Assembly: GCF_965363235.1 (NCBI RefSeq)
Contig: NC_134842.1
Location: 20,093,521 to 20,157,520, forward strand
Length of the DNA: 64,000 nt
DNA from: Mytilus galloprovincialis
Lineage: Eukaryota
Direction: 5' to 3'
Below are positions 2,928 through 63,200 of the stretch, piece after piece; position 1 is the first letter of the stretch, and every line of letters begins with the position of its first letter. Made by a program: the position numbers and the translations under genes. The notes below the pieces were generated by a model. That model was not told the origin of the DNA and made no database searches. It worked only from the letters and a program-made list of their open reading frames with translations.

Positions 2928-3640
2928 TTAATAATTATATTCTACAAAAAGAGGGACGAAAGATACCAAAGGGACAGTCAAACTTATAAATCTAAAACAA
3001 ACTGACAACGCCATGGCTAAAAATGAAAAAGACAAATAGAAAAACAATAGGACACATGACACAACATAGAAAACTAAAGAATAAACAACACGAACCCCAC
3101 CAAAAACTAGGGGTGATCTCAGGTGCCCCGGAAGGGTAAGCGGATTCTGTTCCACATGTGGCACCCGTCGTGTTGCTTATGTGATTACAAATCCGGTAAA
3201 TAGTCTAATTCGGTAGGTAACATTTATGAAAGGGAAGGGGATTGTAGTTACGACGTAAGGAACATATCCGATATCATTTGTGAAACGGTTATTCCATAAC
3301 GATCAACCAACTCGTGATGGCGTCCGTAAAATTTACGAAGGGATGATTTCAACTTCACCATTTGGAACTCTTGGTTTAATAGCTTCCTTGTGAGCAGTAA
3401 CCCTCTATCAAGAAAATCATGATAGGAAATGCAAGCACGGGAATATCGTATCAATTGGGAGATATCTACCCCGTATGCAGGAGCTGCTGGAATGTTGCTA
3501 CTTAGAAATGGGAAGTTCACAATTGGAAAGCTGAAATCATCTCTTTTGTCGTAAAGTTTTGTTTTCAACCGACCCTCATTGTCAATTTCTAGATGTAAGT
3601 CAAGATATGAAGCCAATGATGTACATTGTATAGTTTTATA
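2928..3640 (-). mobile_element. 5'-truncated non-LTR retroelement copy: C-terminal RT region plus ~320-bp 3' UTR, inserted in the 3' flank of cGLR copy 1.
   Basis: ORF 3248-3649(-) reads 'YLDLHLEIDNEGRLKTKLYDKRDDFSFPIVNFPFLSSNIPAAPAYGVDISQLIRYSRAC...', a paralogue of the C-terminal part of the RT ORF at 34952-35620. It is nearly identical to 25483-26235 on the opposite strand. The orthologous empty site is at ~34040 in the paralogous flank. Confidence 0.8.
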
Positions 3641-3769
3641 ATCAATCAATCATTTCACTTCACAGCATGTTTAATATGCCTTTAACTACTGAAATATTTT
3701 AACTACCAAATGAGGAAGTACATGTAATAGTATATAGATGTATTCTGAGAGAATCCATGACAAATGGCC

Positions 3770-34839: not shown

Positions 34840-36370
34840 AAACTATGTTAATTGGACATGCTTTGATACTATATATGCCCTCGAATTTTTACTAGATAAC
34901 ATTTTTGTTCGCTTTGGGGATTCCGTATATCGTCAGATTATCGGAATTCCAATGGGGACTAACTGTGCACCACTTATTGCGGACCTCTTTTTGTATTGTT
35001 ATGAGTTACAATTTATGACAAAAATAAGCAAAGAACCATCAAAACAACATCTGATAAACAAATTTAATAATACTTTTAGATATTTGGATGATATTTTGGC
35101 TCTCAATAATGACGACTTCAGTATGTATATTAATGAAATTTATCCTGCTGAACTTACTTTAAATAAAGCTAATACTAACAATGACCACTGCCCTTTCCTC
35201 GATCTTGATATCTATATCACTATTGGAAAGCTGAATACTCAAATTTACGATAAAAGGGATGATTTTTCATTTCCTATCGTTAATTATCCGTTTTTAGATG
35301 GTGACGTTCCCTTGTCACCATCTTACGGTGTTTATATATCTCAACTTGTACGATTCGCTCGTGTATGTAACAATGTTTTAGATTTTAACGAGAGAAATTT
35401 ATGTATTACTGAAAAATTATTACACCAGGGTTTTCGATATCACAAACTAGTCAAAACATTTACTAAATTTTATCATCGGTATAAAGACATCATTCGTAAA
35501 TATAGCTCAACATGCAGACTTCTTATACGTTCAGGTATTTCACATCCATTTTTTATGGAAATATTCTTTATAAAGCACAAAGGTGTCAGTATTCACCTCA
35601 GAAACTTACAAAACCTTTGAATAGACTTATTAAGAAGGGATATAATAACGATACTGTTGTCAAGTCATTAAAGATTGCATATTTTGGCGTTAATATTGAG
35701 TCACTGATAAGGTCTTTGCGTCGGAACTAAACACATTTATTCTAAAAACAGTTGTTGGCATGACACGGGTAATGTTCTTCTCATATATGTTATGATGGTA
35801 TGATACTAAACCCCTAACGGGAAGGATTGTGCCTGATGTTCATATGATGAAATCATAATCTTTCAGTCAGTTTAATGGAAGTCTGGAGCTGGCATGTCAG
35901 TTAACTGCTAGTAGTCTGTTGTTATTTATGAATTATTGTCATTTTGTTTATTTTCTTTGGTTACATCTTCTGACATCAGACTCGGACTTCTCTTGAACTG
36001 AATTTTAATGTGCGTATTGTTATGCGTTTACTTTTCTACATTGGTTAGAGGTATGGGGGAGGGTTGAGATCTCACAAACATGTTTAACCCCGCCGCATTT
36101 TTGCGCCTGTCCCAAGTCAGGAGCCTCTGGCCTTTGTTAGTCTTGTATTATTTTAATTTTAGTTTCTTGTGTACAATTTGGAAATTAGTATGGCGTTCAT
36201 TATCACTGAACTAGTATATATTTGTTTAGGGGCCTGCTGAAGGACGCCTCCGTGTGCAGGAATTTCTCGCTACATTGAAGACCTGTTGGTGACCTTCTGC
36301 TGTTGTTTTTTTATTTGGTCGGGTTGTTGTCTCTTTGACACATTCCCCATTTCCATTCTCAATTTTATGT
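34840..36370 (+). mobile_element. Retroelement copy with the longest surviving RT ORF (34952-35620), followed by the family's 3' tail (35880-36370).
   Basis: RT motifs 'FVRFGDSVYRQIIGIPMGTNCAPLIADLFLYCYE' and 'FRYLDDILALNN' (YxDD-type motif C), then '...YDKRDDFSFPIVNYPFLDGDVPLSPSYGVYISQLVRFARVC'. The 3' tail 'tggagctggcatgtcag...cctgtcccaagtcaggagcctctggcctttgttagtc...' recurs at 28540-29000, 4640-5150(-) and 46470-46745(-). Confidence 0.7.
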
Positions 36371-45295: not shown

Positions 45296-46469
45296 GCGGG
45301 ATCCCAACCCTCCCCTAACCTAAGACAGTGGTGTAACCATTGCAACATAAGAACGAGCTATAAAAATCTGTTTAAAAAGGCTGAACTCATCAGATGGATA
45401 CACATATAAATAATACAGAGTGGACGTGGCCTTTATAAACTTTCCTGTTATCTTTATCCTTTATTAGAAACGCTCAAGGCCAAAAAAATAAAACAGATGG
45501 TTAATATGAACAAAGTTTCGAAAGGTCATAGATTAAGCAAGTACAATGTCTTAATCAGAAACTGAAACTGACAAATGTTCAATTACTTGTGTATTTTATT
45601 AAAAGATTAATGTATAATGTAACACTTATCACATAACTGTTTTTTCATTTAAAGATCATATTTCAATGTATTAATGTATAAATAATATAGAATCACATAT
45701 CACATGTATCATGTACTGTACATATCACAGAATTAAATATAAATCACTCAAAAATGTTACAGTTATTATTACAATACTACAGAAGTAGAAAATATTCAGA
45801 CAAAACATTTATGAAGTTGATTATCTTAAGGATGCAGCAATGTATTTTTATTAACTATTAGTACTCTTTTTGTATGCATCATAACTGCAAATGGCAGCAG
45901 TGTAGCCATTTTGTGCTAAGGTGGCGTAAAACAAACATCAATCAATCAATCATAATTGCACATGTCTTTTAAACTCCTCTGGTCATTTCATTTTTTACTG
46001 CATGGATTACATTTAAATTTTACATGCAAAATACAAATTACGTAAGAAATCTTCCACACTGTTCCCTAGTTCTAAATCCCTGATGAGATTTGAGTGTTCC
46101 TTTTTCATTTGTAACAACCACTTATAAACAATAACAAGTTCTTTCTTTACAAGTTTCACATTTTGAGATTTTCCTTTGTACAGGATTATGAAGTCGACAG
46201 CATGATCAGATGCATCATGGATAATCATGGCATCTGGGATCATAGTCTTGTCTATAATTGCATATTCATTTATTAAGAATATAAAGATTAAGATTGATGC
46301 CAGGACTCTTTCTGCTAGTAACTGCACACTGATACCTGCAAAAAGATATAAAAACTAAATTCAAATCTTAAAAGCAAAGACTAAACTGTTGACACATGTT
46401 ATTATGATAGTATGATCCAAATGCTGAAATGTCAGTAATAAAACCTATTCATATATGACAAGTCTACAA

Positions 46470-46948: not shown

Positions 46949-47400
46949 ATGAATATAAGACATGAAAATAATTTAAAACAAGAATGTGTCCATAGTACAC
47001 GGATGCCCCACTCGCACTATCATTTTATATGTTCAGTGGACCGTGAAATTGTGGTCAAACTTATAATTTGGAATTATAATTACAAAGATCATATCATAGG
47101 GAACATGTGTACTAAGTTTCAAGTTGATGTAACTTTAACTTTATCAAAAACTACCTTGACCAAAAACTTTAACCTGAACTTTGCACTATCATTTTCTATG
47201 TTCAGGTGACCATGAAATTGGGGTCAAAACTATAATTTGGCATTAAAATTAGAAAGATCATATCATGGGGAACATGTGTACTAAGTTTCAAGTTGATTGG
47301 ACTTCAACTTCTTCAAAAACTACCTTGACCAAAACTTCAACCTGAAGCGAACGGACGCACAGACGGACGGATGAACGAACGGAGGCACAGACCAGAAAAC
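46949..47400 (+). mobile_element. Two tandem copies of a (GACGGA)n-tailed SINE-like element.
   Basis: '...cactatcattttctatgttcag...gggtcaaaactataatttggcattaaaattagaaagatcatatcatggggaacatgtgtactaagtttcaagttgattggacttcaacttc...cctgaagcgaacggacgcacagacggacggatgaacgaacgg'. Family members also lie at 52440-52740 and 57010-57300. Confidence 0.6.
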
Positions 47401-47504: not shown

Positions 47505-49950
47505 AGGGGTAATTTAACTTGTAATGGTGTGTAAGCTATGAATGCTCTTAGTTGTGAGATGAGGAATTATTTAAGCTGTCTGTTTTAGTTTTCTTTCACT
47601 TTGTTTTATCAAGGATATCAAAGGAATTTTATGTCATGAATTTGATTCACAATATTCCATTTTCAGGATAATAAAATGTGTTATTCTTACCTAAGGAATA
47701 AAGTCCTTGTAACTTGAGAATGTCATGTATTCTATTGTATGATAAACCCAACATGTCACATAGATCGGGTGTCAAGTTGTAAAATTGTCCCTGGAAAATT
47801 AAATAAAATGTATATAAGGTGTGAAACTCAACATGTTAATACATAGGTCTGGTCTCTAAGTTTTAAAATTGTTCTTGTAAAATTAAATACATTTATGATT
47901 ATTATATGTGAAACCAAACATGTTTCTGTTGAAGACCATACTTTGACCTATAATGTATAAAAAAGAAGATGTGGTATGATTGCCAATGAGACAACTATTC
48001 ACAAAAGACCAAAATGACACAGACATTAACAACTATAGGTCACCGTACGGCCTTCAACAATGAGCAAAGCCCATACCGCATAGTCAGCTATAATAGGCCC
48101 CTATAAGACAATGTAAAACAATTCAAACGAGAAAACTAACGGCCTTATTTATGTAAAAAAATGAACGAAAAACAAATATGTAACACATAAACAAACGACA
48201 ACCACTGAATTACAGGCTCCTGACTTGGGACAGGCACATTGTTTACTTTTACAAATTGTAACTTGGATGGAGTGTTGTCTCATTGGCACCCATACCACAT
48301 CTACTTATATCTATTATGTTACATAGATCTGGTATCAAGTTGTAAAATTGTCAGCGATGTCACATTATTATCAAACTTCAACTATAATCAAGTGTAAACC
48401 CTATAAAGCAGGAATCAAACCAAGATGAGACCAGAAATAGCACTTTAACAGATTATCTTATTTTTTCTGTGTATTAAAAAAAACATAATAAATATCAGCC
48501 ATAAGACACATGCATGCTGCTAAAAATTTATAATATTAATGTGTATATACAGAAAACCGAAGATATGGTGTCAAGTTGTAAAATTCACCCTGTAAAATCA
48601 ATTTGCATCTCAATTTGCTGACCTTTCCAAAAATGAATGGGTATATTATAAAATGTAGTCAAGAGAGAGTGACTGGCTTTGATACTAATTGTAGTCTTGA
48701 ATGTTGAAATGATTTATTATTAATCATCACAAATACAGTCCCAAAGTATCCTGAAGTTCTTGCAATTTGTTCTCAAATAAGTTTCACACAGGTTCTAAGC
48801 ATTTCATGCAAAAATATACACTAGACACGGGATGACACCAAGCATAAATCTTGTACTTGTAAATCTTTATTTATCAAAAAACTATTCATGCAGGGAAGGT
48901 AATTTAACTTAGCTAACCTCATATAAGGGAGGTAATGCATCCATCAGTGACAATCTCTTCTTCACCCTAACAAGTCCTTGCCATATTCCTCCCAAGTCTG
49001 ATGGGTCTGTAAATAATGGAAAAAAAATGTAAAAAATATAAGATACACAAATGGATTAAATATTATCAAAAATAAAATTATCTATAAAAAATGTTCTTTT
49101 ATGAGCATTGATGGGAACATTTTTAGGATTATTGAAAAATTGTTAATTCCTCATAAAAAATATAAGATACACAAATGGATTAAATATTATCAAAAATAAA
49201 ATTATCTATAAAAAATGTTCTTTTATGAGCATTGATGGGAACATTTTTAGGATTATTGAAAAATTGTTAATTCCTCACTATCAAAATTCAAGAGCTATAT
49301 AATTTTTGAGAAAACCTATCCTGTGAAAATTTGATAATACTAAAAACATTGCAGTAATTTCTGAATAAATCTAACTAAAAATAAATCTCTAAACTCGCTC
49401 ATTTTCTTATGATTGGTCACTGCTTGGGAGCTCCTTACTTTTTGGATCAATTATTCTTTTAATTACATAGGCTTTTTAATGGAAATAAAGTAGAAAATGG
49501 AAGGACCTCAAAGTTTTTCTGACGCATTCTCAATCTGTTTTGAATTTGTAACGTCGTACAACAATGTGTTGACAAAACCAATTGTTGTATGAAATCAAAG
49601 ATACAAAATTATTTATTTTTTTCAATGGAATTCAATACATGGTCATTGGCAAAAAGAAACTCATTGTCAAGACCCTTTTGCATTATTGATACACATGCAA
49701 GTCTACATCCATCATAACAAGTTTCTTTAAGTTATATATTGCGTATAATTCTTGTACCTCTATATTAATTGTTATATTATCAATACCTTTGTTTTCTTTA
49801 TTTTCTGTTATTTCTCTTTTAGTTTCCTACAACGAAAAAGGGCCATAATCATCTGATCAATTATGTATTTGATATGTGAATACATTATCACTGAGAAGTC
49901 ACTTTATATATATATAGTTTCAGGATTAAAAAAACCCCAAATTTTCAATA
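47505..49950 (+). repeat. Paralogous unexpanded copy of the satellite-hosting element. It contains ~1.3 monomers of the 36-bp unit at 48655-48705 and an internal ~120-bp duplication at 49020-49260.
   Basis: Collinear nucleotide similarity to 8530-9020 and 19020-20400. 'aaatgtagtcaagagagagtgactggctttgatactaattgtagtcttgaatgttgaaat' corresponds to the end of the array at 18990-19035. Confidence 0.7.
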
Positions 49951-51606: not shown

Positions 51607-51711
51607 CTTAAATTGCCTCAGGAACTGTTCTTTAGCTGGTCCCATAGTACTAGTTACTTTTTCTGGTAGGTTTGCTTCTAGCTTGTCCTCTTTGATGTCA
51701 ACTGACATTAC
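51607..51711 (-). CDS. Clathrin heavy-chain-like gene, exon 7 (the last exon identified; the gene may continue below 51607).
   Basis: Acceptor 'ctttaag|GTAATG', donor 'aag|GTAATG'. Encodes 'VMSVDIKEDKLEANLPEKVTSTMGPAKEQFLRQFK', compared with CLTC '[22 protein letters not shown]...NLAGAEELFARKFN'. Confidence 0.6.
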
Positions 51712-52439
51712 CTTAAAGTAACAAATCAAAAAATTACTTTACGAATGAAGGTACATCTTTTTCAACCAGACCAGATTGACTGATTCGATAGACAAAAAAT
51801 CATTCTTATACATGTAAAAACGATGATTAACATGTATTTTTAATCTATAATAGGAAATTAAATAGACCTAGAAAAATCCAATTGCCCCAGTCAGCTTAAA
51901 CTATTTATATCTATATTTATGTTTATATACCTTATATGGTCATTGGAGGTTTTCAGAGGTTGAATCAATAGTTAATTAGATGACGTCTAGACTAAAATAC
52001 ACAGGAAATGAAGCTACATATTATCGAGACCATACTCTGTAAATTGTTTATTTTTAGACTTTCAATAATTTGGATGAATGTTTTACATTGTTATAAATCA
52101 AACATGAGAATTTGAGTCAAATCAGTGAACATGAATTTGACAGCTAGTGCCCCTTTAACTTTCATTTGAGTATAAAAATTTGCAAACAGCATGGATGTGG
52201 ACAAAATCATTTCCCAGGATTTTCTAGTAATGAACAAAAAGTATTAAAGCCAGTAACCTCAATGAACAGCCCTGTAAAAGGTGTATTTATAAAATTCAAT
52301 TGTTTGACAAAATCTAATGTGTATGAATTGCTACTATTATATTTTTAATTCAACTTCTATTTTAGTCCATTTTTCTAGAAATATGTCACCTTTTTCTACT
52401 TTAATTCATATTTTGTTACACAGTGACATGCCTCCCCCA

Positions 52440-52740
52440 TTGAAATTGGGTTAAATAGTAACAAGAATGTGTTCCAGTACCTGCACTATCATTTTCTATG
52501 TTCAGTGGACTGTGAAAATGGGAAAAATCTCTAATTTGGCATTTAAATTAGAAAGATCATATCATAGGGAACATGTGTACTGAGTTTCAAGTTGATTGGA
52601 CTTCAACTTCATCAAAAACTACCTCGACCAAAAACTTTAACCTGAAGTGGGACAGACGGATGGACTAACGAACGGACGAACGAATAGACGGACGCACAGA
52701 CCAGAAAACAAAATGCCCATAAATGAGGCATAATAAATGG
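52440..52740 (+). mobile_element. (GACGGA)n-tailed SINE-like element.
   Basis: Same family as 47190-47400 and 57010-57300. Located in intron 6 of the clathrin-like gene. Confidence 0.6.
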
Positions 52741-53130
52741 GGCATAAAAAGAATATGATATATACAAGATATGTGTAGGCAAGGGCTAGTAGCACCATTG
52801 TAGTGTGTGGAAATGAAAACATTTGCCATCTTCAAAGTTATAAAGGAGCATAACTCTAGAAATGTAAGTGATTCACTGTCCACATTTGAGCTCTGTCTGT
52901 AAGTTTAGGTTGTTAGCATTGTGTATGAACTTATAAAATTTGAATGAGTAAAACTGAAGTAAGAGTGCGGAAAAGAAAATGGGAAGGAAAGAAAGACAGG
53001 CAAATGGTCAAGGGTGACACTTAATGCTCATTCCTATAGGGGAAGGGTCATACAAAAGTACTTTAGAAGTTAAAATGTTTTTGAATTACCTTTAGTTAGT
53101 ATAATATTTAATATGCCTTATATGACTCAC

Positions 53131-53298
53131 CCATCCAACCTGATTGACAGCCAGAAATCCTTCCCCCCGAGGAGCTGTAACAAACACTGTAGAATCACTT
53201 ATCCTCATTGTATAGAGAAGTCTCCCTGTTTCTATCATGTAAAGATGTACATAACCCATTTTTGTTATCAGGAAGGCCATCCTATGCTTTATGTTAAC
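53131..53298 (-). CDS. Clathrin heavy-chain-like gene, exon 6.
   Basis: Acceptor 'ttattattgtag|GTTAAC', donor 'tgg|GTGAGT'. Encodes 'VNIKHRMAFLITKMGYVHLYMIETGRLLYTMRISDSTVFVTAPRGEGFLAVNQVGW', compared with CLTC '[60 protein letters not shown]'. Confidence 0.7.
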
Positions 53299-53716
53299 CT
53301 ACAATAATAATTATAATTATGTTAATAATTGCAAACATAATAAAATATTTATAACCTATATAATATAAAATAAAACAAGAGACTCAAAGGAGATATCTGA
53401 TAATTTAGGTCCAAAAAGATTGTAGGTAAAGATATGTTGACATATTCATAAAATTTTTCCAATCAGATTTTCTCTATCTATTATATGTTTTTTTCCCATA
53501 ATTTTACAGTTAACAAATTCCAATTGATGGCAAAAACTCATCATTTAATTTTTGACCAGATGATCTCAAATGAAATAATTCTGCATATATTAAATGGTCA
53601 GTTTAATTGCCATACATATTTAGCAAGACATTTTGGCAGCACTCCTTTTTGGATTATTGGTGTCTCTTTCAATGGAAAACAGGACACGTTTCATCAAATA
53701 TATCAGATAGTTTTAC

Positions 53717-53824
53717 CTCTATTGCAATAGGAAAGTCATCTTTGTCTGTGAAATCAACATCAACAATTCTAGTTGTAAAAGGCTGGTTACCATGACAGGG
53801 TTGACCTACTTCTTGTATGTGAAG
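53717..53824 (-). CDS. Clathrin heavy-chain-like gene, exon 5.
   Basis: Acceptor 'ttatttccag|CTTCAC', donor 'gag|GTAAAA'. Encodes 'LHIQEVGQPCHGNQPFTTRIVDVDFTDKDDFPIAIE', compared with CLTC '[38 protein letters not shown]'. Confidence 0.7.
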
Positions 53825-54265
53825 CTGGAAATAAATTTGGAAAATGAAAAATCAGTACAAATCATTTAAAAAAATATATCTTATTTCTTTTCATGATATA
53901 TATCTGAGTTGTAATATAACAAGCATTGTGTTAAAGTTTCATAACATTTGGTTGTGGCAATCTTATGTTAGAGAACAGAAACAAAAAATAAGTAGTTTTT
54001 CCATTTGTAAACAGGCATAACTTTAGAGCGGTAATAGTGACACCACAAAAATTCAAACCTGATCTGTGTTTTGTGATAATGAGTATTGTGTTTAAGTGTC
54101 ATCACATTTGGTTGAGGCAAACATAAGTTTGAGAACAGAAACCAATTTCTGGATATACAAATGGACAAGGGTAAAACTGCATGCCCTCTCAGCTACGACG
54201 GGGGCATCAGAAATAAAAATATGCCTCATTTTATCAGCATGTTCACAAGGTTCTATCATATATAC

Positions 54266-54427
54266 CTTGCCACCATAGTCCTCCCGTACGGCATATAACA
54301 ATAGTATAGAGGGAGCTGGATTATTATCCACTGTCAGCTTAGTAAAGGTTGCTGTGTGACTGTCAAACAGTCGCTTGATGCAGCTCTGTACGGAGTACAG
54401 TTGTGTGAAACCAATCACTCTATCCTC
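54266..54427 (-). CDS. Clathrin heavy-chain-like gene, exon 4.
   Basis: Acceptor 'aattacag|GAGGAT', donor 'aag|GTATAT'. Encodes 'EDRVIGFTQLYSVQSCIKRLFDSHTATFTKLTVDNNPAPSILLLYAVREDYGGK', compared with CLTC '[55 protein letters not shown]' with identical length. Confidence 0.7.
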
Positions 54428-55206
54428 CTGTAATTATAAGGTAAATAATTATACATTGACCTTACATTTCTATAACATTTTTCGGCTAATTTTAAACTAC
54501 ATGAAACATACTGTGGATTCATTATTATTCGTTGGATAACAATTTTTGTGGGTTTTGTGGGTACAGGTGAACCATGAATTTTTTAAAATGTATAACTATA
54601 TCAAATTTTTTATAGGCTTTTGCAAAACCGTTAGATTAAATATTCACAAATATGTAACTTTTCCTTAATCCATGAAAATTGGTACCCACAAAACTATTTG
54701 AATCCATAGTATGTAAAGCAATAATCTTTTTTTTATATGAATATGTCATGACTGCCCTACAAACATTTTGATTTTATTAGATCTACCAAAATGAAAATAA
54801 GAAGATTTGGTATGATTGCAAAATAATTGTGAGTTTTTTTATTATACATGTAATGTGAATAATGCAACTGGATGAGTATTGCAATAATAACAACCTGCAT
54901 TCTGATATTTAATACATTATATCTGTATGTAGCTTCTCCAGAAATCTGATATTTAATACATTTTATCTGTCAGCAGCTTCTCCAGAAATCGCTATAATTA
55001 ATCTCACATTTTTGTTCATTCTTCAAATATTTCAATTGTAAATGCACTCAATAATTTCTGAATTTACAGTAGATAAATGATAAATTATTCAATTGTTTAT
55101 TCATTTTCCTCTATGAATATGTAACATGCATTCCCCCTGTAGCCTACATGGAAGCTTTATTTTTGTCAACACTTCATTTTTTGTTATATCTTCTTTACTT
55201 TATGAC

Positions 55207-55325
55207 CTGTTTCAATATCCATGTTAAGGCTGACCAGTGTCCATCAGGGTCCATCTTATATCCAACCACCTGACAGTTGTTCAACGTTCTATTATGGTCA
55301 TAAAGTTTCTGTGGTTCTCTGCCAT
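55207..55325 (-). CDS. Clathrin heavy-chain-like gene, exon 3.
   Basis: Acceptor 'tttttacag|ATGGC', donor 'aacag|GTCATA' (a weak donor). Encodes 'DGREPQKLYDHNRTLNNCQVVGYKMDPDGHWSALTWILKQ', compared with CLTC '[41 protein letters not shown]'. Confidence 0.65.
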
Positions 55326-55959
55326 CTGTAAAAACAGTGAAGGAATGTTATTCTTTTTTTCAAATTTTGAAGTACTAGGTGCTAAAATTTAAAGCCCGAC
55401 AGGAAGGAACAATTTTCTATATCTGTAATGTCTGCAGTGAGGAACTAAATAGTTTGATACAAATTATGTTATATATGTTAGAAATTTTCAACTTTTTAAT
55501 TATTGAATCACTGTTTACGTTGAACTGATAATAGATTGATAATACATTATTGATATTGGATAAATACAACATTACATGCAGTTTTGTGAGTAAAAACATG
55601 TATTTTCATCTTTCAGAAGATCAATGAGTGATGGATTTTTAAAGATACCATTGAATAAACTATACAGAAAACAATAGCTATTGTATTTATTCAATGGGAC
55701 AATAAAACTTACTAAAGTTTAACTAGATTGACCAATAGGAGATGGTTCTGTGGATAAGATTCATTTGGTTTGCAATAATAAGAATATGATGCAGGAACAG
55801 ACACATTATTTTCATTAGAATCTGGGATTTGGCGTTTATTGTTCTCAATGTTTTCAGGATAAGACCCCATATCTTACCCCTCTCATTTACATATTGAATA
55901 ATGTCTCTCTGTGCTTGCTAAATTAATGTCATAATAAACAAAATTTCATAACTGGCTAC

Positions 55960-56109
55960 CTGAATGATTATACAGACAAACTGATTTATCTGTCACCATG
56001 GCAACTGTATCAGCAGAAATCCAGGTCCAAAACTTGACATCTTCCTCCATCTGATAAGCCTTTATCTCTGAGTTGTTATGTAAATCATATACCAGTATAG
56101 TTTTGCCAC
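55960..56109 (-). CDS. Clathrin heavy-chain-like gene, exon 2.
   Basis: Acceptor 'tatatacag|GTGGC', donor 'tcag|GTAGCC'. Encodes '(C)GKTILVYDLHNNSEIKAYQMEEDVKFWTWISADTVAMVTDKSVCLYNHS', compared with CLTC '[48 protein letters not shown]'. Reading phase is continuous with exon 1. Confidence 0.7.
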
Positions 56110-56261
56110 CTGTATATAAAATTCATTGGTATAATATATATATAAATTTGATGAGAATTGGCATAAAACTCAACAAACAAGTGAAACTGCGAGCTACTGC
56201 TCACTGATGATACCCCCCCGCCACAAGTGGATAATATTAATAGTGTAAAAATATGGAAGTG

Positions 56262-56625
56262 TTCGGTAAACAGGAAGTTGTCGAGTGATGAATCTGAAAA
56301 CGCATCACACGGTATAGCTGACTTATATAAATCCTGAAACCAAATTTCAGAAATCCTTGTATTGTAGTTCCTGAGAAAAATGTGACGAAAATTTTCAACT
56401 TGGCTATCATGTGTAAAATCAGACAAGTGTTCGGTAAACAGGAAGTTGTCAAGTGATGAATCTGAAAACGCATCTCACGGTATGGCTGACATATATAAAT
56501 GTTGATACCAAATTACAGAAAGGGTGGATGTGTAGTTCCTGAGAAAAATGTGACGAAAGTTTCATGGGACGGACTGACTGACGGACGGACGGACTGACAG
56601 ACGGACGGACAGACAGAGGTAAAAC
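56262..56625 (+). mobile_element. Two tandem ~160-bp copies of a different (GGAC)n-tailed short repeat.
   Basis: 56262-56420 is approximately repeated at 56422-56625, which ends in 'ggacggactgactgacggacggacggactgacagacggacggacagacaga'. Confidence 0.55.
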
Positions 56626-56779
56626 AGTATACCCCCCCTTTTTTAAAGCGGGGGTATAATAAAAACTTAGTCAACTATAATAATTATAAATATAAGATAC
56701 ATGTACCAAAGAGGACATGGGATAATACAACTGATATCTACTGACAAGGGAATGAATAACATTGTGTGGCCACCTTAAA

Positions 56780-57000
56780 GCTTTAGTCTAAAGATCTTAA
56801 TGAGAAATACCATGGAATTGACATTCATCTTGGTATTTTTTCAATCTTTAAAGGAAACAGCAAAACTGATGGACTATGTTGTGTTTTGTGTACTGTTGTT
56901 TGTCTTTGGTTGTTTTTTTTCATTTTTTGCCATGGCATGATTAGTTTGTTTTTGGACATATGAGTTTGAATATCCCTTTGGTACCTTTCGCCTCTCTTAT
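56780..57000 (+). mobile_element. Fragment of the retroelement 3' UTR seen at 26040-26235.
   Basis: '...gtttgtctttggttgtttttttt cattttttgccatggcatgattagtttgtttttggacatatgagtttgaatatccctttggtacctttcgcctctctt' compares with 26100-26215. Confidence 0.5.
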
Positions 57001-57009
57001 ACAGTATCT

Positions 57010-57296
57010 AACAAGAATGTGTCCATAGTACATGGATGCCCCACTCACACTATCATTTTCTATGTTCAGTAGACTGTGAAATTTGGGTTAAAACTCTAAT
57101 TTGGTATTAAAATTAGAAAGATCATATCATAGGGAACATGTGTATTAAGTTTCAAGTTAATTGGACTTCAACTTCATCAAAAACTACCTTGACCATAAAC
57201 TATAACCTGAAGTGAGACAGACGGACGGACAAACGGACCCAGAGAACAGAAAACATAATGCCCCTCTACTGTCGTAGGTGGGGCATAAAAACTCAC
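57010..57296 (+). mobile_element. (GACGGA)n-tailed SINE-like element, located in intron 1 of the clathrin-like gene.
   Basis: Same family as the two entries above. The artefactual ORF tail 'GSVCPSVCLTSG' is read from it. Confidence 0.6.
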
Positions 57297-57495
57297 ATCT
57301 TACTGCTACAATATGTTGTTTTCTAGGATTGACAATACAGGAGTCTGCCTGTACTGGTATTCTGTATGGATGTTTGGGATTATCAATGTTAAATATGATC
57401 AGCTGGTTGTCTTCTCTGACACATATATATTTATCAGACTCCATTGTAACTGTATGGAATTTTATAGTATTACTGTCAATTCCTAAAGACTGAAG
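57297..57495 (-). CDS. Clathrin heavy-chain-like N-terminal domain gene, first recognisable coding exon (66 codons plus 1 nt).
   Basis: Acceptor 'ttttctttcag|CTTCAG'. Encodes 'LQSLGIDSNTIKFHTVTMESDKYICVREDNQLIIFNIDNPKHPYRIPVQADSCIVNPRKQHIVAVR', compared with human CLTC '[30 protein letters not shown]...[33 protein letters not shown]'. Donor t|GTGAGT. The exon carrying the initiator Met is not confidently located; a candidate ATG lies at ~57585-57595 (minus strand). Confidence 0.7.
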
Positions 57496-58714
57496 CTGAA
57501 AGAAAAGGAGATTGTCAGTGAAAAATAGAATTCTCAATGTAAAACATTGTTAATTTGTACTTAGATCAGATGTAGGCAAAAATATGGCCCAAGTACATCA
57601 TTTCCTTAAGATAATAAAAAGTTACATAATTTAAGCAGAACTATAATACAAAAGATTTAGAATTCAAACCTTCCCTAGGATATATACTTGGCGGCTCTTT
57701 TTTTCCTTTTTTTGTAGCTTATTATGAAATAATTTGTTGTTAATTCAGTGTTCTCCCCAGGCCCTTAAAGGACCACGGACCCGCGATGTATAATTTTCTA
57801 CCGTGGTGGTATCGTTCTTGCCGTGATGTATAATTTTTCACCGTGGTGCTAAAATTTTCGGTAAAAAAAACTCATATAACGGTAAACCTTTCCGTGGGGT
57901 ATAAAATTTCAGATGAAAATTGACCAGATCAAACCAGTTCAATCCAACTTAATTTTTTGCTTAATTTCAAATGATTCGTTTAAAATGTACTTTTACATCT
58001 GAAAACCAATAAGGAACTAGTTGTCAAATTGTTTTCTGTAATTTGAAGTCACTATCAGGCTTGTTTAAAACCTTCTCTGTCAAGCAGTATTTAATAAGCC
58101 ATATGCCACTTTTTGGCTTCTTGAAATGAAAAATTAAAAAGTATCATAAATCTACTAAATAACATGGAACAGATGTTTATAAAAAAATTGTTAGAACAGA
58201 TATCTGTATTAAAAGTTTTGATTTTTTTCTCATATATATACAGCTGTTTTTCATTTGTTAGATGTGTCTGAGTTTTAGATTTTGCCATTTAATAATTTTA
58301 AGGACAATCCATTTTGAATTTTCCTTGGAGTTCAGTACTTTTTGCATCAATACAGAAATAAGCGCAAAACTGAGAAAAAAAGTGTTATTTTGAGATATTG
58401 TCATTAAAATTAAAATTTGACCAAAGGCTTTACCTAAAATGATATTTTGCTACAAAATTCATTAAATAAACATGGCAATGTGTATAAAATATGTTTTTGG
58501 GTAGGAAAAATCAAAAAGCAACTGTGAGAATTTTAAAGACAGCTGTCTATTAATTGCTGAAGACTGTATATTGTCCTCTAAATGTCTTTGGCTTATATGT
58601 GTCATTATATTAGGTATACAGTCATATTGATTAATGCATATATGCTATATATATATAGTTTTTGTAACAGTACTTTCCTTTATTCTAAATTTTTAACTTT
58701 GATCTTACTTTATT

Positions 58715-60240
58715 GGTTATTGTCATGGTTTAACCATCCCCTGGTGTGCTAGCCATCAAGTGCATACAGGTTGACTGGTAACTTACATTGCTGACAATGG
58801 TCATGGTTTAAGCATCTCTTGGTGTGGTAGCTATAAGGTGTAGACAGCTTTGTTGGTAACTTACATTATAAGTAACAGTCATGGTTTAACCATCCCTTAT
58901 TGTACTAGCTATAAAGTGTGGACAGATTAACTGTTACATACTTTGCTGACAATGTTATTGTTGAATCATCACTTTGGTGGGCTAGCTATAAGGTGGATAC
59001 TGGTTAGCTGGTTACTTACGTTATTCACTATGGTCATGGTTTCACCATCCCTTATTGTGCTAGCTATAAGGTGGATACTGGTTAGCTGGTTACTTACGTT
59101 ATTCACTATGGTCATGGTTTCACCATCCCTTATTGTGCTAGCTATAAGGTGGATACTGGTTAGCTGGTTACTAACTTTATTCACTATGGTCATGGTTTCA
59201 CCATCCCTTATTGTGCTAGCTATAAGGTGGATACTGGTTAGTTGGTTGCTTACGTTATTGACTATGGTCATGGTTTAAGCATCCCTTATTGTGCTAGCTA
59301 TAAAGTGTGGACAGTTTGATTGGTTACTTTCTTTATTGACAATGGTCATGATTGTCATGGTTTAAGCATCCTTTATTGTGCTAGCTATAAAGTGTGGACA
59401 GTTTGATTGGTTACTTTCTTTATTGACAATGGTCATGATTGTCATGGTTTAAGCATCCTTTATTGTGCTAGCTATAAAGTGTGGACAGATTGATTGGTTA
59501 CTTTCTTTATTGACAATGGTCATGATTGTCATGGTTTAAGCATCCTTTATTGTGCTAGCTATAAAGTGTGGACAGTTTGATTGGTTACTTACTTTATTGA
59601 CAATGGTCATGATTGTCATGGTTTAAGCATCCTTTATTGTGCTAGCTATAAAGTGTGGACAGATTGATTGGTTACTTTCTTTATTGACAATGGTCATGAT
59701 TGTCATGGTTTAAGCATCCCTTATTGTGCTACCTATAAAGTGTGGACAGTTTGATTGGTTACTTTCTTTATTGACAATGGTCATGATTGTCATGGTTTAA
59801 GCATCCCTTATTGTGCTAGCTATAAAGTGTGGACAGTTTGATTGGTTACTTTCTTTATTGACAATGGTCATGATTGTCATGGTTTAAGCATCCCTTATTG
59901 TGCTAGCTATAAAGTGTGGACAGTTTGATTGGTTACTTTCTTTATTGACAATGGTCATGATTGTCATGGTTTAAGCATCCCTTATTGTGCTAGCTATAAA
60001 GTGTGGACAGTTTGATTGATTACTTACTTTATTGACAATGGTCATGATTGTCATGGTTTAAGCATCCTTTATTGTGCTAGCTATAAAGTGTGGACAGATT
60101 GATTGGTTACTTTCTTTATTGACAATGGTCATGATTGTCATGGTTTAAGCATCCTTTATTGTGCTAGCTATAAAGTGTGGACAGTTTGATTGGTTACTTA
60201 CTTTATTGACAATGGTCATGGTTTGTGCTAGCTATTGTAA
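58715..60240. repeat. Minisatellite with two sub-families: a ~78-bp unit (58965-59280) and an 87-bp unit (59280-60235, which contains the internal 9-bp duplication 'gtcatgatt').
   Basis: Direct inspection. ORFs 58943-59278 (+ and -) are artefacts of this repeat. Confidence 0.85.
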
Positions 60241-63200
60241 ATTCAGAAATTATTGCGATGTTTTTATTAATGCAAAAAATGCGACTGAGTTACAATCGCA
60301 ATAATTTGAATTGCATTTAAAAAACATTAATATGAATTAAACAGGACTTTTCTTAATAACGCAAAAATTAAAATTGCACTCTAGTCTAAAATGACAAAAT
60401 CGCAATAATAAATGCATGTTATAATTTCTGAATTTACAGTATATTGTTTGAACTTAATTGTTAACGAGTTGCTAATTTGTTGGTTATGGTCATAACTTTT
60501 TGTTACTAACCTTTATAATGATATGTTTCTCCATAGGTGGAGGACAACTGTGCGTTTCTCCTACATTGTCAAGCCTCCAAATCTAAATTTAGAAAATCAT
60601 GATGAAATGAAAGTGTTTACATGTTTAAGGCATCCAAACTATCTCTTAAATGTCTAGATCAGAATGACATAATATATAATATATAAAAGCATTTAGAATT
60701 TTGCTCTAACTCAAGGATATCAAAATATAAGATTTGTTTTTCTTTTGGGGTAAGGTGGTTGTTCATATCTATTATGTAAAAAAATAACTAAATACATCAC
60801 AACAAGTGACCTTTCTGCACAAAAGTTTCCAGATAATATAAACCAGTTCAATTATCAATGCAATTAACACAATTATGTTGTTTATGCAATTTAAGTTCCA
60901 CTGTAAACAAACTTTTTTTATGATTGATTTATTTTTTGCATCTTTTGTAAATGGAAAAATAAAGTCAATATAAAGATGATAAATTGTTGCGAATATGTAA
61001 AATTTTGATCTTTTCTTATGAACTTAAATCAAGTATAAAATTTGAAAAATCGTGAAATTGAATATAGCTGCAAACTAAAATAGAAAGGGTGAATGCAAAA
61101 ATAAGTTGGTTTACAGTAAACAAAATTGACGGACATCAATTGATGCCAGTAGAGCAGTTGATTTTAAATCCAACCAATCTATAGTTACGTATTTCTTTTT
61201 TTTTTATTTATTCAACAACAATATTCCCGTCCCTAGGATTTTCATGGCTTTCAACTCACTCAATTTATTTTGCACAAGCTGTTTCTGTGGATTCATTTAT
61301 TTTTGTCAGTATCCATTTTCATGGATTGAGGAAAACTTGCTTTTTGGTGGATATTTGATTTCATTTTTTGCCAATCTCTACTTACTTAATTTTTAATTCA
61401 TTGTACATTTGAATTTGTGATTAACGTGAACCCATGAAACCCCCCCCCAAAATTGGTATCCAATGAATAATAATGAATTCACAGTAACAGATTTCTTTAC
61501 TGGTAGAGCTATGGTACAAAAGACCAGAGTATCTTTATTTCAGGTATTTCTGTAAAATATACTTCATTGTTTCAATAAAATAAAAATGTACAACAAAGTA
61601 CAGTTACTTTTTATGTAACAGTATTTTAAATTCTTTTCAGGGATATTTAAATCCTGTAAAAATGAATACTTTATGTCCAGTAAGAATTCATTATCTAATG
61701 TGCTAAATGTGCTACATAGGCGACATACAAAACACTTACCGGTACTTTATTTTTTTCCAAAATGTGCCTTGGTGTGTCTGAAAAATAAAGTTAATTGTAA
61801 TATTTGTTTATCTATGAATTTGACAAACTATAAGTGCTCTAATGGCTTCTAGATTAAGGTTTACCTCTTTATACTATCAGACCCCAAAGAAAAAATATTT
61901 TAACAACTATATGTATTAAATCAATAAAGTGTTTTGGTAATTTATCAAAATGGGCTAAGGCCACGCCACACCAATTTAATTCCTTGTTCAACGGACCCGC
62001 CCACACCTATTTTTTTCAAAACAGATTTTTTTTTCGTTTTTTTATATTCCCGCTTCCTGCATCCGGAAATGTAATCATGAGTATTTCCAACACCGTTTTT
62101 TTTGTAAATATTATAAAAAAGATATTAACACTTGTTTTAAAATCACAGTCTTACCTGTATTTAATGATTTCAAACCTATAAAGCACCCCACCACACTTTG
62201 TAAATATCTGTGTAAAAATTTGATTAAACATTAAACCCCATTACCTGGTTACTTACATTCCCCATCAAAAAATGTTCGTTGTTAGAATAAAGTATGCAGA
62301 ACTTCTGAAGGAGAAGAGTTGCCATCAACTGCAATTATATTGTATGCCGGCGGAACAAAACTATTCATACCCGTTGCATGTTTATACACCTGGCTGGATT
62401 GATTAGGAGGCCTGTTGTTCAGTAGTTATCGTTTGTTGATGTGGTATTTTCCGTTTGTATTTATAAATTAGATTGTTGGTTTTCCTCTTTTAATTGTGTA
62501 CACTAGTAATTTTTGGGTCCCTTATAGCTTGCTATTTGGTCTGGGTCAAAGCCCTGTGTAAAAGGCCGAACTATGACCTGATTTTGTTATCATCAGGTTG
62601 GGAACAACCCTCCCTCAGGCAAGGGGTCATTTTACTTTTGTAGAAAAGAAGATAGAAAAAAACAAGGATTTGTATAGTGCTAATATACCAATCCTTGGAA
62701 AAGCATAGAATTTTTACTTAAAAAGAGGAGAAATACATCATATTTGAAACAAATTTTCTAAAAGAGGGGTCCACTTATTTTGAATAATATAAAATTAAAT
62801 GATATATATGTGTTAACACTAAAGTCCAGGAATATTACAAAATTGTTGGACATGTTTTAACCATTAATACCAGATAGATATATAGTTCTTTGGGAAAATA
62901 TGAGCCCTTTTGTACTAAAAAGTGTTTACAAAAAAATATATTATAACTTATATTGACCCCTCATTAAAGGGATATTTTATAACATTGAGGGGTTGTTCCC
63001 AACCTGATGATGACTTGGATGGAGAACTGTCTCATTGGCACACATATACATATACCACATCTAATTATTCATTTATTTCTTGGTGAACAGGGAAAAAACA
63101 CTTCATAAATTAAAGAAATGTCAGAGTACAAGTGATAAATCAAGTTTTAATATTGTCAAAACCTACTATTTTATGTTTACAAAAAAAAAAATTATAATCG

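What the first reader, a model, noticed from the sequence alone, without database searches (positions are those of the whole stretch)
51607..57600. Divergent but intact paralogue of the clathrin heavy-chain N-terminal beta-propeller (seven exons, minus strand)
Seven exons with canonical AG/GT boundaries and consistent phases reconstruct ~336 aa that align collinearly, largely without gaps, to residues ~13-360 of human CLTC. The aligned residues cover the terminal-domain propeller, the adaptor clathrin-box binding module. Identity is only ~45-50%, whereas canonical metazoan clathrin heavy chains are much more conserved (>80%). There is no in-frame stop in any exon. A dead pseudogene would be expected to accumulate stops, so this looks like a fast-evolving functional paralogue. 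It may be a terminal-domain-only protein, since the repeat-filled region below 51607 gives no clear continuation. I do not know of a described gene of this kind.
Basis: partly seen in the sequence, partly recalled or inferred. Interest (0 to 1): 0.7.

Follow-up and report, generated by a model that had tools for sequence, protein, structure and literature searches.

The report
Clathrin propeller grafted into mussel gene
A mussel (Mytilus) gene carries seven in-frame exons that encode a strongly diverged copy of clathrin's N-terminal propeller, placed between an arginine/serine-rich region and a domain related to the vault-docking domain of PARP4; this is a real, lineage-specific domain-shuffling event, but whether the cassette is expressed has not been tested.

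Summary
Seven minus-strand exons (57495-51607) have AG/GT borders and matching phases and give 337 aa with no stop. These are clearly a clathrin terminal domain (TD): E=3.6e-85 to solved TDs, and an AF2 model with TM 0.86-0.92. Identity to human is 40-43%, not 45-50%.

This is not a TD-only gene or a separate paralogue. The cassette sits inside a larger gene. Two host exons lie upstream in the window, and four more exons lie downstream (49826-46013, then a stop). All 13 exons translate exactly to residues 836-1391 of RefSeq XP_076109027.1, an uncharacterized Mytilus galloprovincialis protein.

The C-terminal 183 aa are homologous to the MVP-interaction (MINT) domain of PARP4. A scallop relative has the RS-rich region plus the MINT-like domain but no TD.

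TD intron positions match a canonical clathrin gene, so the cassette arose by DNA-level partial duplication followed by exon capture.

Against M. coruscus, exons diverge about half as fast as introns and carry almost no indels. dN/dS is 0.46 for the TD and 0.27 for the MINT-like part. However, the M. coruscus assembly has a 1-nt frameshift in TD exon 6, and I found no transcript evidence.

Key clathrin-box residues are lost; W-box residues are kept.

The parts
61740..61777 (-). Host exon H2 (38 nt; ..DTPRHILEKNKVP), = XP_076109027.1 residues 836-848. More 5' exons (residues 1-835: acidic, Pro/Ser-rich, long RS-rich) lie beyond the window end.
   Evidence: tblastn of P0003 N-terminal part; AG/GTAAGT borders; exact translation match
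60511..60582 (-). Host exon H1 (72 nt, phase 0/0; IWRLDNVGETHSCPPPMEKHIIIK). Its last 8 residues are predicted to form the N-terminal beta-strand that canonical clathrin residues ~6-13 supply to the propeller.
   Evidence: AF2 strand E20-27 with block pLDDT 95; the 'KV..W' motif is shared with TD-less relatives P0005 and P0006
57297..57495 (-). TD exon 1 (199 nt; LQSLGIDSNTIKFHTVTMESDKY...), = CLTC residues 15-~83
55960..56109 (-). TD exon 2 (150 nt)
   Evidence: conserved with splice sites in M. coruscus
55207..55325 (-). TD exon 3 (119 nt)
54266..54427 (-). TD exon 4 (162 nt); same borders, phase and length as the canonical Priapulus clathrin exon at L003 974-1135
53717..53824 (-). TD exon 5 (108 nt); same borders as canonical exon L003 8633-8746; 100% nt identity to M. 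coruscus
53131..53298 (-). TD exon 6 (168 nt); same borders as canonical exon L003 11454-11627; the M. coruscus orthologue has a 1-nt deletion here
51607..51711 (-). TD exon 7 (105 nt; start of the clathrin linker). It has the canonical acceptor position but a new, earlier donor (AAG|GTAATG), which marks the 3' breakpoint of the captured segment.
49787..49826 (-). Exon X1 (40 nt; ETKREITENKENK), a non-clathrin spacer
48918..49006 (-). Exon X2 (89 nt; DPSDLGGIWQGLV...), start of the MINT-like domain region
47691..47790 (-). Exon X3 (100 nt; GQFYNLTPDLCDMLGLSYNRIHDILKLQGLYSL), the core match to PARP4 residues 1585-1616
46013..46335 (-). Exon X4 (323 nt including the TAA stop), the rest of the MINT-like domain (...LELGN...LYFACKI*)
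45847..45852 (-). First AATAAA after the stop codon (candidate poly(A) signal)
   Evidence: sequence motif only

Best explanation
The seven exons are a captured clathrin terminal-domain cassette inside a larger Mytilus gene (M. galloprovincialis LOC143077023).

Shown:
- The exons encode a 337-aa seven-bladed propeller plus the first linker helices.
- Their intron positions and phases match those of a canonical clathrin heavy-chain gene.
- They are flanked in frame by host exons on both sides.
- The host's C-terminal 183 aa are homologous to the MVP-interaction (MINT) domain of PARP4.
- A scallop relative and two unplaced transcripts have the MINT-like domain, with an RS-rich N-terminus in two of them, but no propeller.

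Inferred origin: a DNA-level partial duplication of the 5' part of the canonical clathrin gene (coding exons 2-8) landed in a phase-0 intron of the host. This happened before M. coruscus split from the M. edulis complex. The last exon was cut short and gained a new donor, so the block (1011 nt, phase 0 to 0) splices in frame.

Inferred function: the product is a non-coat protein. It has no clathrin legs or trimerisation domain, so it cannot form triskelia or lattices. The propeller would act only as a peptide-docking module. The canonical clathrin-box groove is remodelled (Q89L, F91Y, K96N, K98E, R64I), while the W-box pocket residues are kept (F27, Q152, I170; I154V). The MINT-like domain may tether the protein to vault particles, which are abundant in mussel gill. 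That step is the weakest.
For: TD identity and intactness:
- Exon model and ORF.
- E=3.6e-85 to solved TDs.
- AF2 model with mean pLDDT 85.8; Foldseek TM 0.86-0.92 and rmsd 2.4 A to clathrin TD structures.

Placement inside a larger gene:
- Downstream exons were found with M. coruscus protein P0001 and have AG/GT borders and fitting phases.
- Upstream host exons.
- The 13 window exons translate exactly to XP_076109027.1 residues 836-1391.
- An independent M. edulis annotation (CAG2240014.1) has the same architecture.

MINT homology:
- A profile of 7 family members hits only PARP4 in PDB (residues 1581-1660, E=4.1e-8).
- hhalign gives 97% probability over 119 columns.

Host family without a TD:
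- Pecten XP_033748226.1, P0006 and P0007.

DNA-level origin:
- 4 of 4 comparable intron positions and phases match the Priapulus canonical clathrin gene, and exon 4 has the identical length of 162 nt.

Selection, measured against M. coruscus:
- TD dN/dS 0.46 (Fisher p=0.024); MINT-like part 0.27 (p=0.0003).
- Exon p-distance 0.064 vs intron 0.114 (p=5e-8); 1 gap column in 1324 exonic nt vs 368 in about 5070 intronic columns.
- All TD splice sites are conserved.

Other:
- Binding-site map: with site definitions from PMC5182127.
- Major vault protein is abundant in Mytilus gill: PMC5302490.
Against: - No transcript or protein evidence was available. The gene models are predictions. Spliced-junction probes found nothing in JGI metagenome contigs. 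The two Logan contigs in the cluster carry only the last-exon ORF and look genomic.
- The M. coruscus assembly has a 1-nt deletion in TD exon 6 that creates a stop. Its annotators called only a 244-aa protein starting after that point.
- TD dN/dS of 0.46 is high, and the test against neutrality is only modestly significant.
- Most clathrin-box, arrestin-box and Royle-box contact residues are changed.
- For the vault step, only 1 of 4 experimentally defined MVP-contact residues is kept: S1614 is kept, while K1618S, Q1682E and R1689D are changed. The basic patch is largely lost.
- Pfam's own PARP4_MVP-ID model does not reach E<10 by hmmscan.
- The AF2 model of the MINT-like domain is weak (pLDDT 60.7) and gave no meaningful fold match.
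Confidence: 0.6

Rival explanations
1. The clathrin exons are a slowly decaying partial-duplicate pseudogene that happens to lie in a large intron of the RS-rich/MINT-like host gene. Homology-guided gene predictors stitched them into the models, but the real mRNA skips them (H1 joined to X1, which is also in frame).
For: - Frameshift in M. coruscus TD exon 6.
- Raised dN/dS of 0.46.
- Loss of most peptide-groove residues.
- Relatives of the host work without a TD.
- No transcript evidence found.
- The region is prone to duplication: there is a second, degraded copy of the 3' exons in the window.
Against: - All seven exons keep open frames and all 14 splice sites in M. galloprovincialis. The predicted M. 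edulis protein differs in the TD by only one residue, but no M. edulis DNA was examined. TD exons 2-7 keep their splice sites in M. coruscus, with only one lesion there.
- Exons diverge about half as fast as the surrounding introns.
- Exons have 1 gap column where about 59 would be expected at the intronic rate.
- dN/dS is below 1 (p=0.024).
- The new donor of exon 7 is conserved.
- The block is exactly in frame with both neighbours.
Confidence: 0.3
2. One reading: a stand-alone, fast-evolving, terminal-domain-only clathrin paralogue with its own start and end.
For: If intron 7 were retained, the frame would stop 13 codons after exon 7, so a TD-ending isoform is conceivable. No clathrin leg exons follow.
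Against: - No Met-containing clathrin-like first exon was found in 6.5 kb upstream.
- TD exon 1 starts at an acceptor in phase 0 that fits host exon H1.
- Exon 7 ends at a conserved donor that fits X1.
- Two gene annotations join the TD to the host exons.
Confidence: 0.06
3. It is the species' ordinary clathrin heavy chain, which is simply divergent in this lineage.
For: None beyond the homology itself. Automated annotation named the M. edulis and M. coruscus models 'CLTC'.
Against: - No linker, CHCR or trimerisation exons in the 51 kb downstream.
- The ORF runs into a PARP4-MINT-like domain and then a stop.
- Canonical TDs from priapulid, shrimp, spider, flatworm and rotifer are 66-85% identical to human, whereas this one is 40-43%.
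Confidence: 0.01

Closest known systems
Canonical clathrin heavy chain terminal domain (human CLTC/CHC17 residues 1-363; PDB 1bpo, 1c9i, 5m5r)
   Same: Seven-bladed propeller fold (TM 0.86-0.92). Collinear alignment to residues 15-368. Same intron positions as a canonical gene. W-box residues F27, Q152 and I170 are kept.
   Different: Only 40-43% identical. It lacks clathrin's own first exon, and the N-terminal strand comes from a host exon. Clathrin-box residues are changed (Q89L, F91Y, K96N, K98E). There are no distal or proximal leg repeats, no light-chain site and no trimerisation domain. It is embedded in a non-coat protein.
CHC22 (CLTCL1), the known vertebrate clathrin heavy-chain paralogue
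   Same: It also arose by duplication of the heavy-chain gene, and its TD binding specificity is altered (general knowledge; PMC11445476 listed).
   Different: CHC22 is a full-length heavy chain, about 85% identical to CHC17, that still forms triskelia. The mussel element is a TD-only fragment fused to unrelated domains.
PARP4 MVP-interaction (MINT/INT) domain, human residues 1562-1724 (PDB 9bw6, 9bw7, 11jf; PMC12280208)
   Same: The C-terminal 183 aa of the mussel protein are homologous to it (E=4.1e-8; hhalign 97%). The conserved motifs F[WY]xLTP[DE]L, QGxxSLG and LELGN are shared, and in both proteins the domain sits at the extreme C-terminus.
   Different: No PARP catalytic, BRCT, VIT or VWA domains. 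MVP-contact residues K1618, Q1682 and R1689 are not kept. The model predicts a beta-hairpin insert (residues 113-138) that is not described for MINT. Vault binding is untested.
Pecten maximus XP_033748226.1 ('serine/arginine-rich splicing factor 4-like', 536 aa) and unplaced transcripts P0006 and P0007
   Same: Same host family: an RS-rich N-terminal region plus the MINT-like C-terminal domain, including the 'KV..W' and 'WxG' motifs ahead of it.
   Different: They have no clathrin propeller between the two parts. About 33% identity in the shared domain.
CLHC1 (clathrin heavy chain linker domain containing 1), recalled from memory and not tested here
   Same: A non-coat animal protein annotated with clathrin heavy-chain-derived segments.
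   Different: As far as I recall it is an ancient, very distant relative, not a 40%-identical, lineage-specific copy. It has no MINT-like domain. No comparison was run.

Membership tests
Clathrin heavy chain (coat-forming protein) | N-terminal seven-bladed beta-propeller (Clathrin_propel repeats) | tested here: met
   Pfam PF01394 39.3 bits vs cut-off 21.3; phmmer E=3.6e-85 to PDB TDs; AF2 pLDDT 85.8 and TM 0.86-0.92 to 7zx4, 1c9i, 1bpo
Clathrin heavy chain (coat-forming protein) | Linker plus seven CHCR leg repeats (residues ~330-1550) | tested here: not met
   tblastn of full-length CLTC found nothing beyond residue ~368 in the 51 kb downstream. The ORF continues into unrelated exons and stops at 46013.
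Clathrin heavy chain (coat-forming protein) | C-terminal trimerisation domain / light-chain binding region | tested here: not met
   Absent from the window and from the full RefSeq model XP_076109027.1. Pfam finds only Clathrin_propel in the 1391 aa.
Clathrin heavy chain (coat-forming protein) | Clathrin-box groove residues between blades 1 and 2 (Q89, F91, K96, K98, R64) | tested here: not met
   Q89L, F91Y, K96N, K98E, R64I; T87 kept. Q89 and F91 mutants impair binding per PMC5182127 Table 2. K96, K98 and R64 are taken from general knowledge.
Clathrin heavy chain (coat-forming protein) | W-box pocket residues (F27, Q152, I154, I170) | tested here: met
   F27, Q152 and I170 are identical; I154V. 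This is residue conservation only; binding was not tested.
Clathrin heavy chain (coat-forming protein) | Arrestin-box and Royle-box residues | tested here: inconclusive
   Arrestin box: W164, L183, Y184, S185 and V233 are kept, but R188S, Q192R, I194F, F216L and I231Q. Royle box: the N-terminal strand is replaced by host sequence, with N296M.
Clathrin heavy chain (coat-forming protein) | Descent from the canonical gene (shared intron positions) | tested here: met
   Four of four comparable exon borders and phases equal those of the Priapulus caudatus canonical gene (L003).
PARP4 MVP-interaction (MINT) domain | Significant sequence/profile similarity to PARP4 residues ~1562-1724 | tested here: met
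   hmmsearch of alignment A2 vs PDB: the only hit is PARP4, E=4.1e-8, residues 1581-1660. hhalign 97% probability, E=1.2e-10, 119 columns, against the human sequence recalled from memory; the residue types at 1614, 1618, 1682 and 1689 match the paper. Pfam PF26156 itself is not significant by hmmscan.
PARP4 MVP-interaction (MINT) domain | MVP-contact residues S1614, K1618, Q1682, R1689 and the basic patch between helices 4 and 5 (PMC12280208) | tested here: not met
   S1614 is kept (QGLYSLG); K1618S, Q1682E and R1689D. Of K1608, K1610, K1618 and R1620 only K1608 is kept (alignments; paper). Mussel MVP may have co-varied; this was not examined.
PARP4 MVP-interaction (MINT) domain | All-helical MINT fold | tested here: inconclusive
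   AF2 with a 7-sequence alignment gave pLDDT 60.7, helices plus a three-stranded insert. Foldseek vs PDB gave no hit with E<0.2.
PARP4 MVP-interaction (MINT) domain | Binds the inside of the vault shell | not testable with these tools
   Needs biochemistry. MVP is abundant in Mytilus gill (PMC5302490).
RS-rich + MINT-like host family (Pecten XP_033748226.1) | Long Arg/Ser-rich N-terminal region followed by a C-terminal MINT-like domain | tested here: met
   XP_076109027.1 residues ~480-790 are RS-rich and residues 1209-1391 match the family profile at E=6e-116. P0005 and P0007 have the same layout.
Unprocessed (duplicated) pseudogene | Frame-disrupting lesions, lost splice sites, neutral substitution pattern | tested here: not met
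   No lesion in this window. dN/dS 0.46, p=0.024. Exons are more conserved than introns and nearly indel-free. One frameshift exists in the M. coruscus assembly, so this status applies to M. galloprovincialis only.

The most novel reading that the evidence does not exclude
Mussels may have a vault-resident protein in which a PARP4-type MINT domain anchors an RS-rich, RNA-binding-like region and an exapted clathrin propeller to the inside of the vault, so that the propeller selects peptide-motif cargo for vault loading. More generally, the RS-rich + MINT-like family (scallop, mussel and unplaced transcripts) would be the first natural non-PARP4 users of the vault-targeting domain. That would give a handle on what invertebrate vaults carry.
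Probability: 0.12. Interest if true: 0.75.

Novelty: new variant of a known kind. Interest (0 to 1): 0.45.

Why it matters
The clathrin terminal domain is normally found only at the tip of the clathrin leg, where it is among the most conserved adaptor-docking modules in eukaryotes. In this gene the same propeller has been cut out at the DNA level, spliced into an unrelated gene and then rebuilt at most of its peptide grooves.

If the cassette is expressed, it is a natural experiment on which TD surfaces can change while the fold is kept. It is also a clean, datable example of exon capture in a bivalve genome known for structural turnover.

The by-product may be of wider interest. The MVP-interaction domain of PARP4, used by engineers to load vaults, has homologues in RS-rich invertebrate proteins that are not PARPs. 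That could point to native vault cargo or minor vault proteins outside vertebrates.

If the cassette is not expressed, the finding reduces to an unusually well-preserved partial pseudogene and a warning about 'CLTC' labels in mussel annotations.

Tried and rejected
1. I searched 6.5 kb upstream for a clathrin-type first exon (M..LPIxFxE) by regex in three frames and found none. MAFFT aligns the end of host exon H1 (CPPPMEKHIIIK) to clathrin QILPIRFQEHLQ without a gap, but only the Pro matches. I do not claim it derives from clathrin exon 1.

2. The word-index protein search with the TD returned only the M. coruscus fragment. With human TD it returned 758 hits, all shorter than about 650 aa and none labelled Mytilus in the top 120. 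The canonical mussel heavy chain could therefore not be fetched, and dN/dS against it could not be computed.

3. Pfam hmmscan of the C-terminal part and its relatives gave nothing, even at E<=10. The 'faint' precomputed PF26156 flag was the lead that profile searches then confirmed.

4. Fold search of the low-confidence MINT-like model gave no usable hits.

5. Spliced-junction probes (TD7-X1 and TD5-TD6) against JGI metagenome contigs gave 0 hits.

6. Literature searches for the accession numbers and for TD paralogues or domain shuffling found nothing specific.

7. I considered that the exon-10-like pieces in intron 9 (48598, 48352-48256, 47896-47824) are mutually exclusive alternative exons. 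I rejected this because they are partial and degenerate and lack matching borders.

8. I considered a second TD-bearing copy. The duplicated 3' segment in the window (8.7-20.4 kb) and the M. coruscus tandem copy P0002/L002 have MINT-like exons only, with no TD.

Full report
**1. The observation.** tblastn of human CLTC (sequence recalled from memory; it agrees residue for residue with the PDB chains aligned) against the whole window gave six collinear minus-strand matches between 57498 and 53095. Nothing else in the window was credible.

I read the minus strand and placed the splice sites by hand. This gives seven exons: 57495-57297, 56109-55960, 55325-55207, 54427-54266, 53824-53717, 53298-53131 and 51711-51607. 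Each has an AG acceptor and a GT donor. The phases chain correctly, the total is 1011 nt, and the 337 codons contain no stop.

- The protein scores E=3.6e-85 against solved clathrin terminal domains, aligning to CLTC 15-334.
- It passes Pfam's Clathrin_propel threshold.
- With an alignment of canonical TDs, AlphaFold2 gives a confident model (mean pLDDT 85.8) that superposes on clathrin TD structures at TM 0.86-0.92 and rmsd 2.4 A.

The one correction is identity: 42.7% to human over 344 residues and 38-43% to every canonical TD I could fetch, not 45-50%.

**2. The cassette is not a gene on its own.** The only close database relative found with the TD was a 244-aa Mytilus coruscus protein auto-named 'CLTC'. 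It starts inside TD exon 6 and continues for about 180 residues that are not clathrin.

tblastn of that protein on the window revealed four further minus-strand exons downstream of exon 7: 49826-49787, 49006-48918, 47790-47691 and 46335-46013. They have AG/GT borders and phases that continue the frame from exon 7, and they end in a TAA. An AATAAA lies about 160 nt further on.

An exhaustive HMMER search with this C-terminal part found a 1391-aa protein that contains both the TD and the C-terminal part at 100% identity. It is RefSeq XP_076109027.1, 'uncharacterized protein LOC143077023 [Mytilus galloprovincialis]'. The same 90% cluster holds CAG2240014.1, 'CLTC [Mytilus edulis]', 2016 aa, with the same architecture.

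Two more of its exons lie upstream in the window, at 61777-61740 and 60582-60511. The 13 exons I placed translate exactly to residues 836-1391 of the RefSeq model. The remaining 835 residues (acidic, Pro/Ser-rich, then a long Arg/Ser-rich stretch) are encoded beyond the window end.

The window is therefore from M. galloprovincialis, and the 'paralogue' is an internal module of a larger predicted protein.

**3. What the C-terminal part is.** Pfam hmmscan finds nothing there, but the collection carried a 'faint' precomputed flag for PF26156, PARP4_MVP-ID.

A profile built from seven family members (mussel, scallop and three unplaced contigs) hits exactly one thing in the PDB. That is human PARP4, residues 1581-1660, at E=4.1e-8. 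A profile-sequence comparison with the human C-terminal domain gives 97% probability over 119 columns.

The shared motifs are plain by eye:
- F[WY]xLTP[DE]L
- QGxxSLG
- LELGN

This is the MINT (INT) domain, which docks PARP4 on the inner wall of the vault and is used to load engineered vaults (PMC12280208).

Of the four MVP-contact residues defined there, S1614 is kept. K1618, Q1682 and R1689 are S, E and D in the mussel protein, and most of the basic patch is gone.

The AF2 model of this domain is weak (pLDDT 60.7) and gave no fold match. So homology is established, while conserved vault binding is only a hypothesis. Major vault protein is an abundant mussel gill protein (PMC5302490).

**4. 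How the cassette got there.** The scallop relative (Pecten maximus XP_033748226.1, auto-named 'SRSF4-like') and an unplaced transcript (P0007) have an RS-rich N-terminus followed directly by the MINT-like domain. P0006 has the MINT-like domain with a short leader. None has a propeller. The short motif 'KV..W' encoded by host exon H1 and the 'WxG' motif of exon X2 are adjacent in those proteins. In Mytilus they are separated by the 337-aa TD.

I fetched a canonical clathrin gene fragment from Priapulus caudatus. Its exons have the same borders and phases as TD exons 4, 5 and 6 and the start of exon 7. Exon 4 is 162 nt in both.

TD exon 7 stops about 31 codons earlier than the canonical exon, at a new donor (AAG|GTAATG). 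That donor is conserved in M. coruscus.

The simplest history is a DNA-level partial duplication of the 5' part of the canonical heavy-chain gene, without its first coding exon, into a phase-0 intron of the host. The 3' breakpoint fell inside the canonical exon. The block is 1011 nt and phase 0 at both ends, so both inclusion and skipping keep the frame.

AF2 predicts that the last eight residues of host exon H1 (MEKHIIIK) form the N-terminal strand that clathrin residues ~6-13 normally provide. That prediction leans on the alignment I supplied.

**5. Whether it is maintained.** The orthologous M. coruscus locus (L001) is syntenic across exons and introns. TD exons 2-7 are all present there with their splice sites.

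| Measure (window vs M. coruscus) | TD exons 2-7 | MINT-like exons |
|---|---|---|
| dN | 0.048 | 0.051 |
| dS | 0.104 | 0.188 |
| dN/dS | 0.46 | 0.27 |
| Fisher p vs neutrality | 0.024 | 0.0003 |

- Over the syntenic blocks, exons differ at 6.4% of sites and introns at 11.4% (p=5e-8).
- Exons carry one gap column in 1324 nt, against 368 in about 5070 intronic columns.
- About 59 gap columns would be expected in the 812 nt of TD exons at the intronic rate.

This pattern is not that of a freely decaying pseudogene.

Against that, the single exonic gap is a 1-nt deletion in M. coruscus TD exon 6 that produces a stop. This is why its annotators called only the part downstream. It may be an assembly error, a recent loss in that species, or a sign that the cassette is dispensable.

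I found no transcript evidence:
- The Logan members of the cluster carry only the last-exon ORF from its first internal Met, as genomic DNA would.
- Junction probes found nothing in JGI metagenomes.
- No paper cites the accessions.

**6. What the propeller could still do.** I mapped the experimentally defined peptide sites (PMC5182127) onto the alignment.

| Site | Kept | Changed |
|---|---|---|
| Clathrin box | T87 | Q89L, F91Y, K96N, K98E, R64I |
| W box | F27, Q152, I170 | I154V (conservative) |
| Arrestin box | W164, L183, Y184, S185, V233 | R188S, Q192R, I194F |
| Royle box | (not assessed further) | native N-terminal strand lost; N296M |

The protein has no leg repeats and no trimerisation domain, so it cannot be a coat protein. 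The most likely role, if it is expressed, is a peptide-docking module with shifted specificity inside an RS-rich, possibly vault-tethered protein.

**7. Canonical clathrin elsewhere.** I could not fetch the Mytilus canonical heavy chain. The word-indexed search returned only proteins under about 650 aa, and none in the top 120 was labelled Mytilus.

The same search shows what canonical TDs look like relative to human:
- Priapulus 85%
- Penaeus 81%
- Nephila 75%
- Schistosoma 74%
- rotifers 66-72%
- fungi 55-69%
- plants about 51%

The mussel cassette, at 40-43%, is more diverged than plant TDs. Given its gene context it is plainly not the species' working heavy chain. That a conserved canonical gene exists elsewhere in the genome is inferred from the universality of clathrin, not shown here.

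**8. Comparison and novelty.**
- Closest known for the propeller: the canonical TD, with the same fold and descent but a different context and different grooves. CHC22 is a full-length paralogue and not comparable in architecture.
- Closest known for the C-terminus: the PARP4 MINT domain, homologous but with contact residues not kept.
- Closest known for the whole: the TD-less RS-rich/MINT-like proteins of scallop and others.

The locus is already annotated (uncharacterized in RefSeq; mislabelled 'CLTC' in two other mussels). I found no description of a clathrin TD grafted into a non-clathrin protein, nor of non-PARP4 MINT-domain proteins. I rate it a new variant of a known kind, of moderate interest pending expression data.

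**Verdict.**
- Best explanation: an exon-captured, selectively maintained clathrin TD cassette within LOC143077023. Confidence 0.6.
- Main rival: pseudo-exons in a host intron that predictors merged into the models. Confidence 0.3.

Noticed in passing
window 9017-19020: A 10-kb satellite of a 36-bp unit (277 copies, 88% matches) with very strong GC skew (0.3-0.5). It produces long spurious ORFs on both strands.
   Followed up: partly
window 51-20410 vs 30480-50523: Segmental duplication: both intervals map to the same M. coruscus interval (L001 ~18-36 kb). The lower copy holds degraded MINT-like exons: exon-8-like at 20283-20254, a frameshifted exon-9-like at 19306-19240, and exon-10-like at 8958-8709 with stops. 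No last exon and no clathrin exons are present. M. coruscus also has a tandem MINT-only copy (P0002, L002) about 40 kb away.
   Followed up: partly
window 45-1514 (+) and 30239-31983 (+): A Mab-21/cGAS-like gene, convergent with the studied gene: a 489-aa ORF with Pfam Mab-21_C at 6.7e-15 and Mab-21 NTase at 8.6e-7. Its duplicate at 30.2-32.0 kb is broken into several ORFs and contains a GSDTD NTase-like motif.
   Followed up: partly
window 58704-60224: An 87/174-bp tandem repeat (about 9-11 copies, up to 97% matches) inside the intron between host exon H1 and TD exon 1. It gives repeat-derived ORFs on both strands (58943-59278).
   Followed up: no
window 57011-57207, 52483-52642, 47183-47342, 46978-47174 (also ~56500-56650): Multiple copies of a ~160-200-bp MITE-like repeat with a GTCCGTCCGTCTGTC core, scattered in the introns. 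All hit one element in the M. coruscus locus (L001 21721-21917) at 87-89%.
   Followed up: no
window 47896-47824, 48352-48256, ~48598-48560: Partial, degenerate tandem copies of the 5' half of exon X3 (FYNLTPDLC...) in the preceding intron. M. coruscus has a similar cluster (L001 22848-23063, 23814). They lack matching exon borders.
   Followed up: yes
window 3248-3649 (-), 25496-25921 (+), 34952-35620 (+): Three ORFs share the motif YDKRDDFSFPIVN...YGVYISQL(I/V)R(Y/F). They are probably fragments of one retroelement family. The one scanned had no Pfam hit.
   Followed up: partly
outside the window: XP_076109027.1 residues ~85-105 (P0003): The N-terminal part of the gene model contains a histone-H3-like stretch ([21 protein letters not shown]) next to an acidic tract. 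The M. edulis model adds a further Gln-rich ~600 aa. These 5' parts may be over-merged gene models.
   Followed up: no
L001 ~9940 (M. coruscus orthologue of window ~53270): A 1-nt deletion in TD exon 6 (CATAGGATGGCC -> CATAGGATAG-T) is the only frame-breaking difference between the two species' 11 shared exons. Whether it is real or an assembly error is unresolved.
   Followed up: partly
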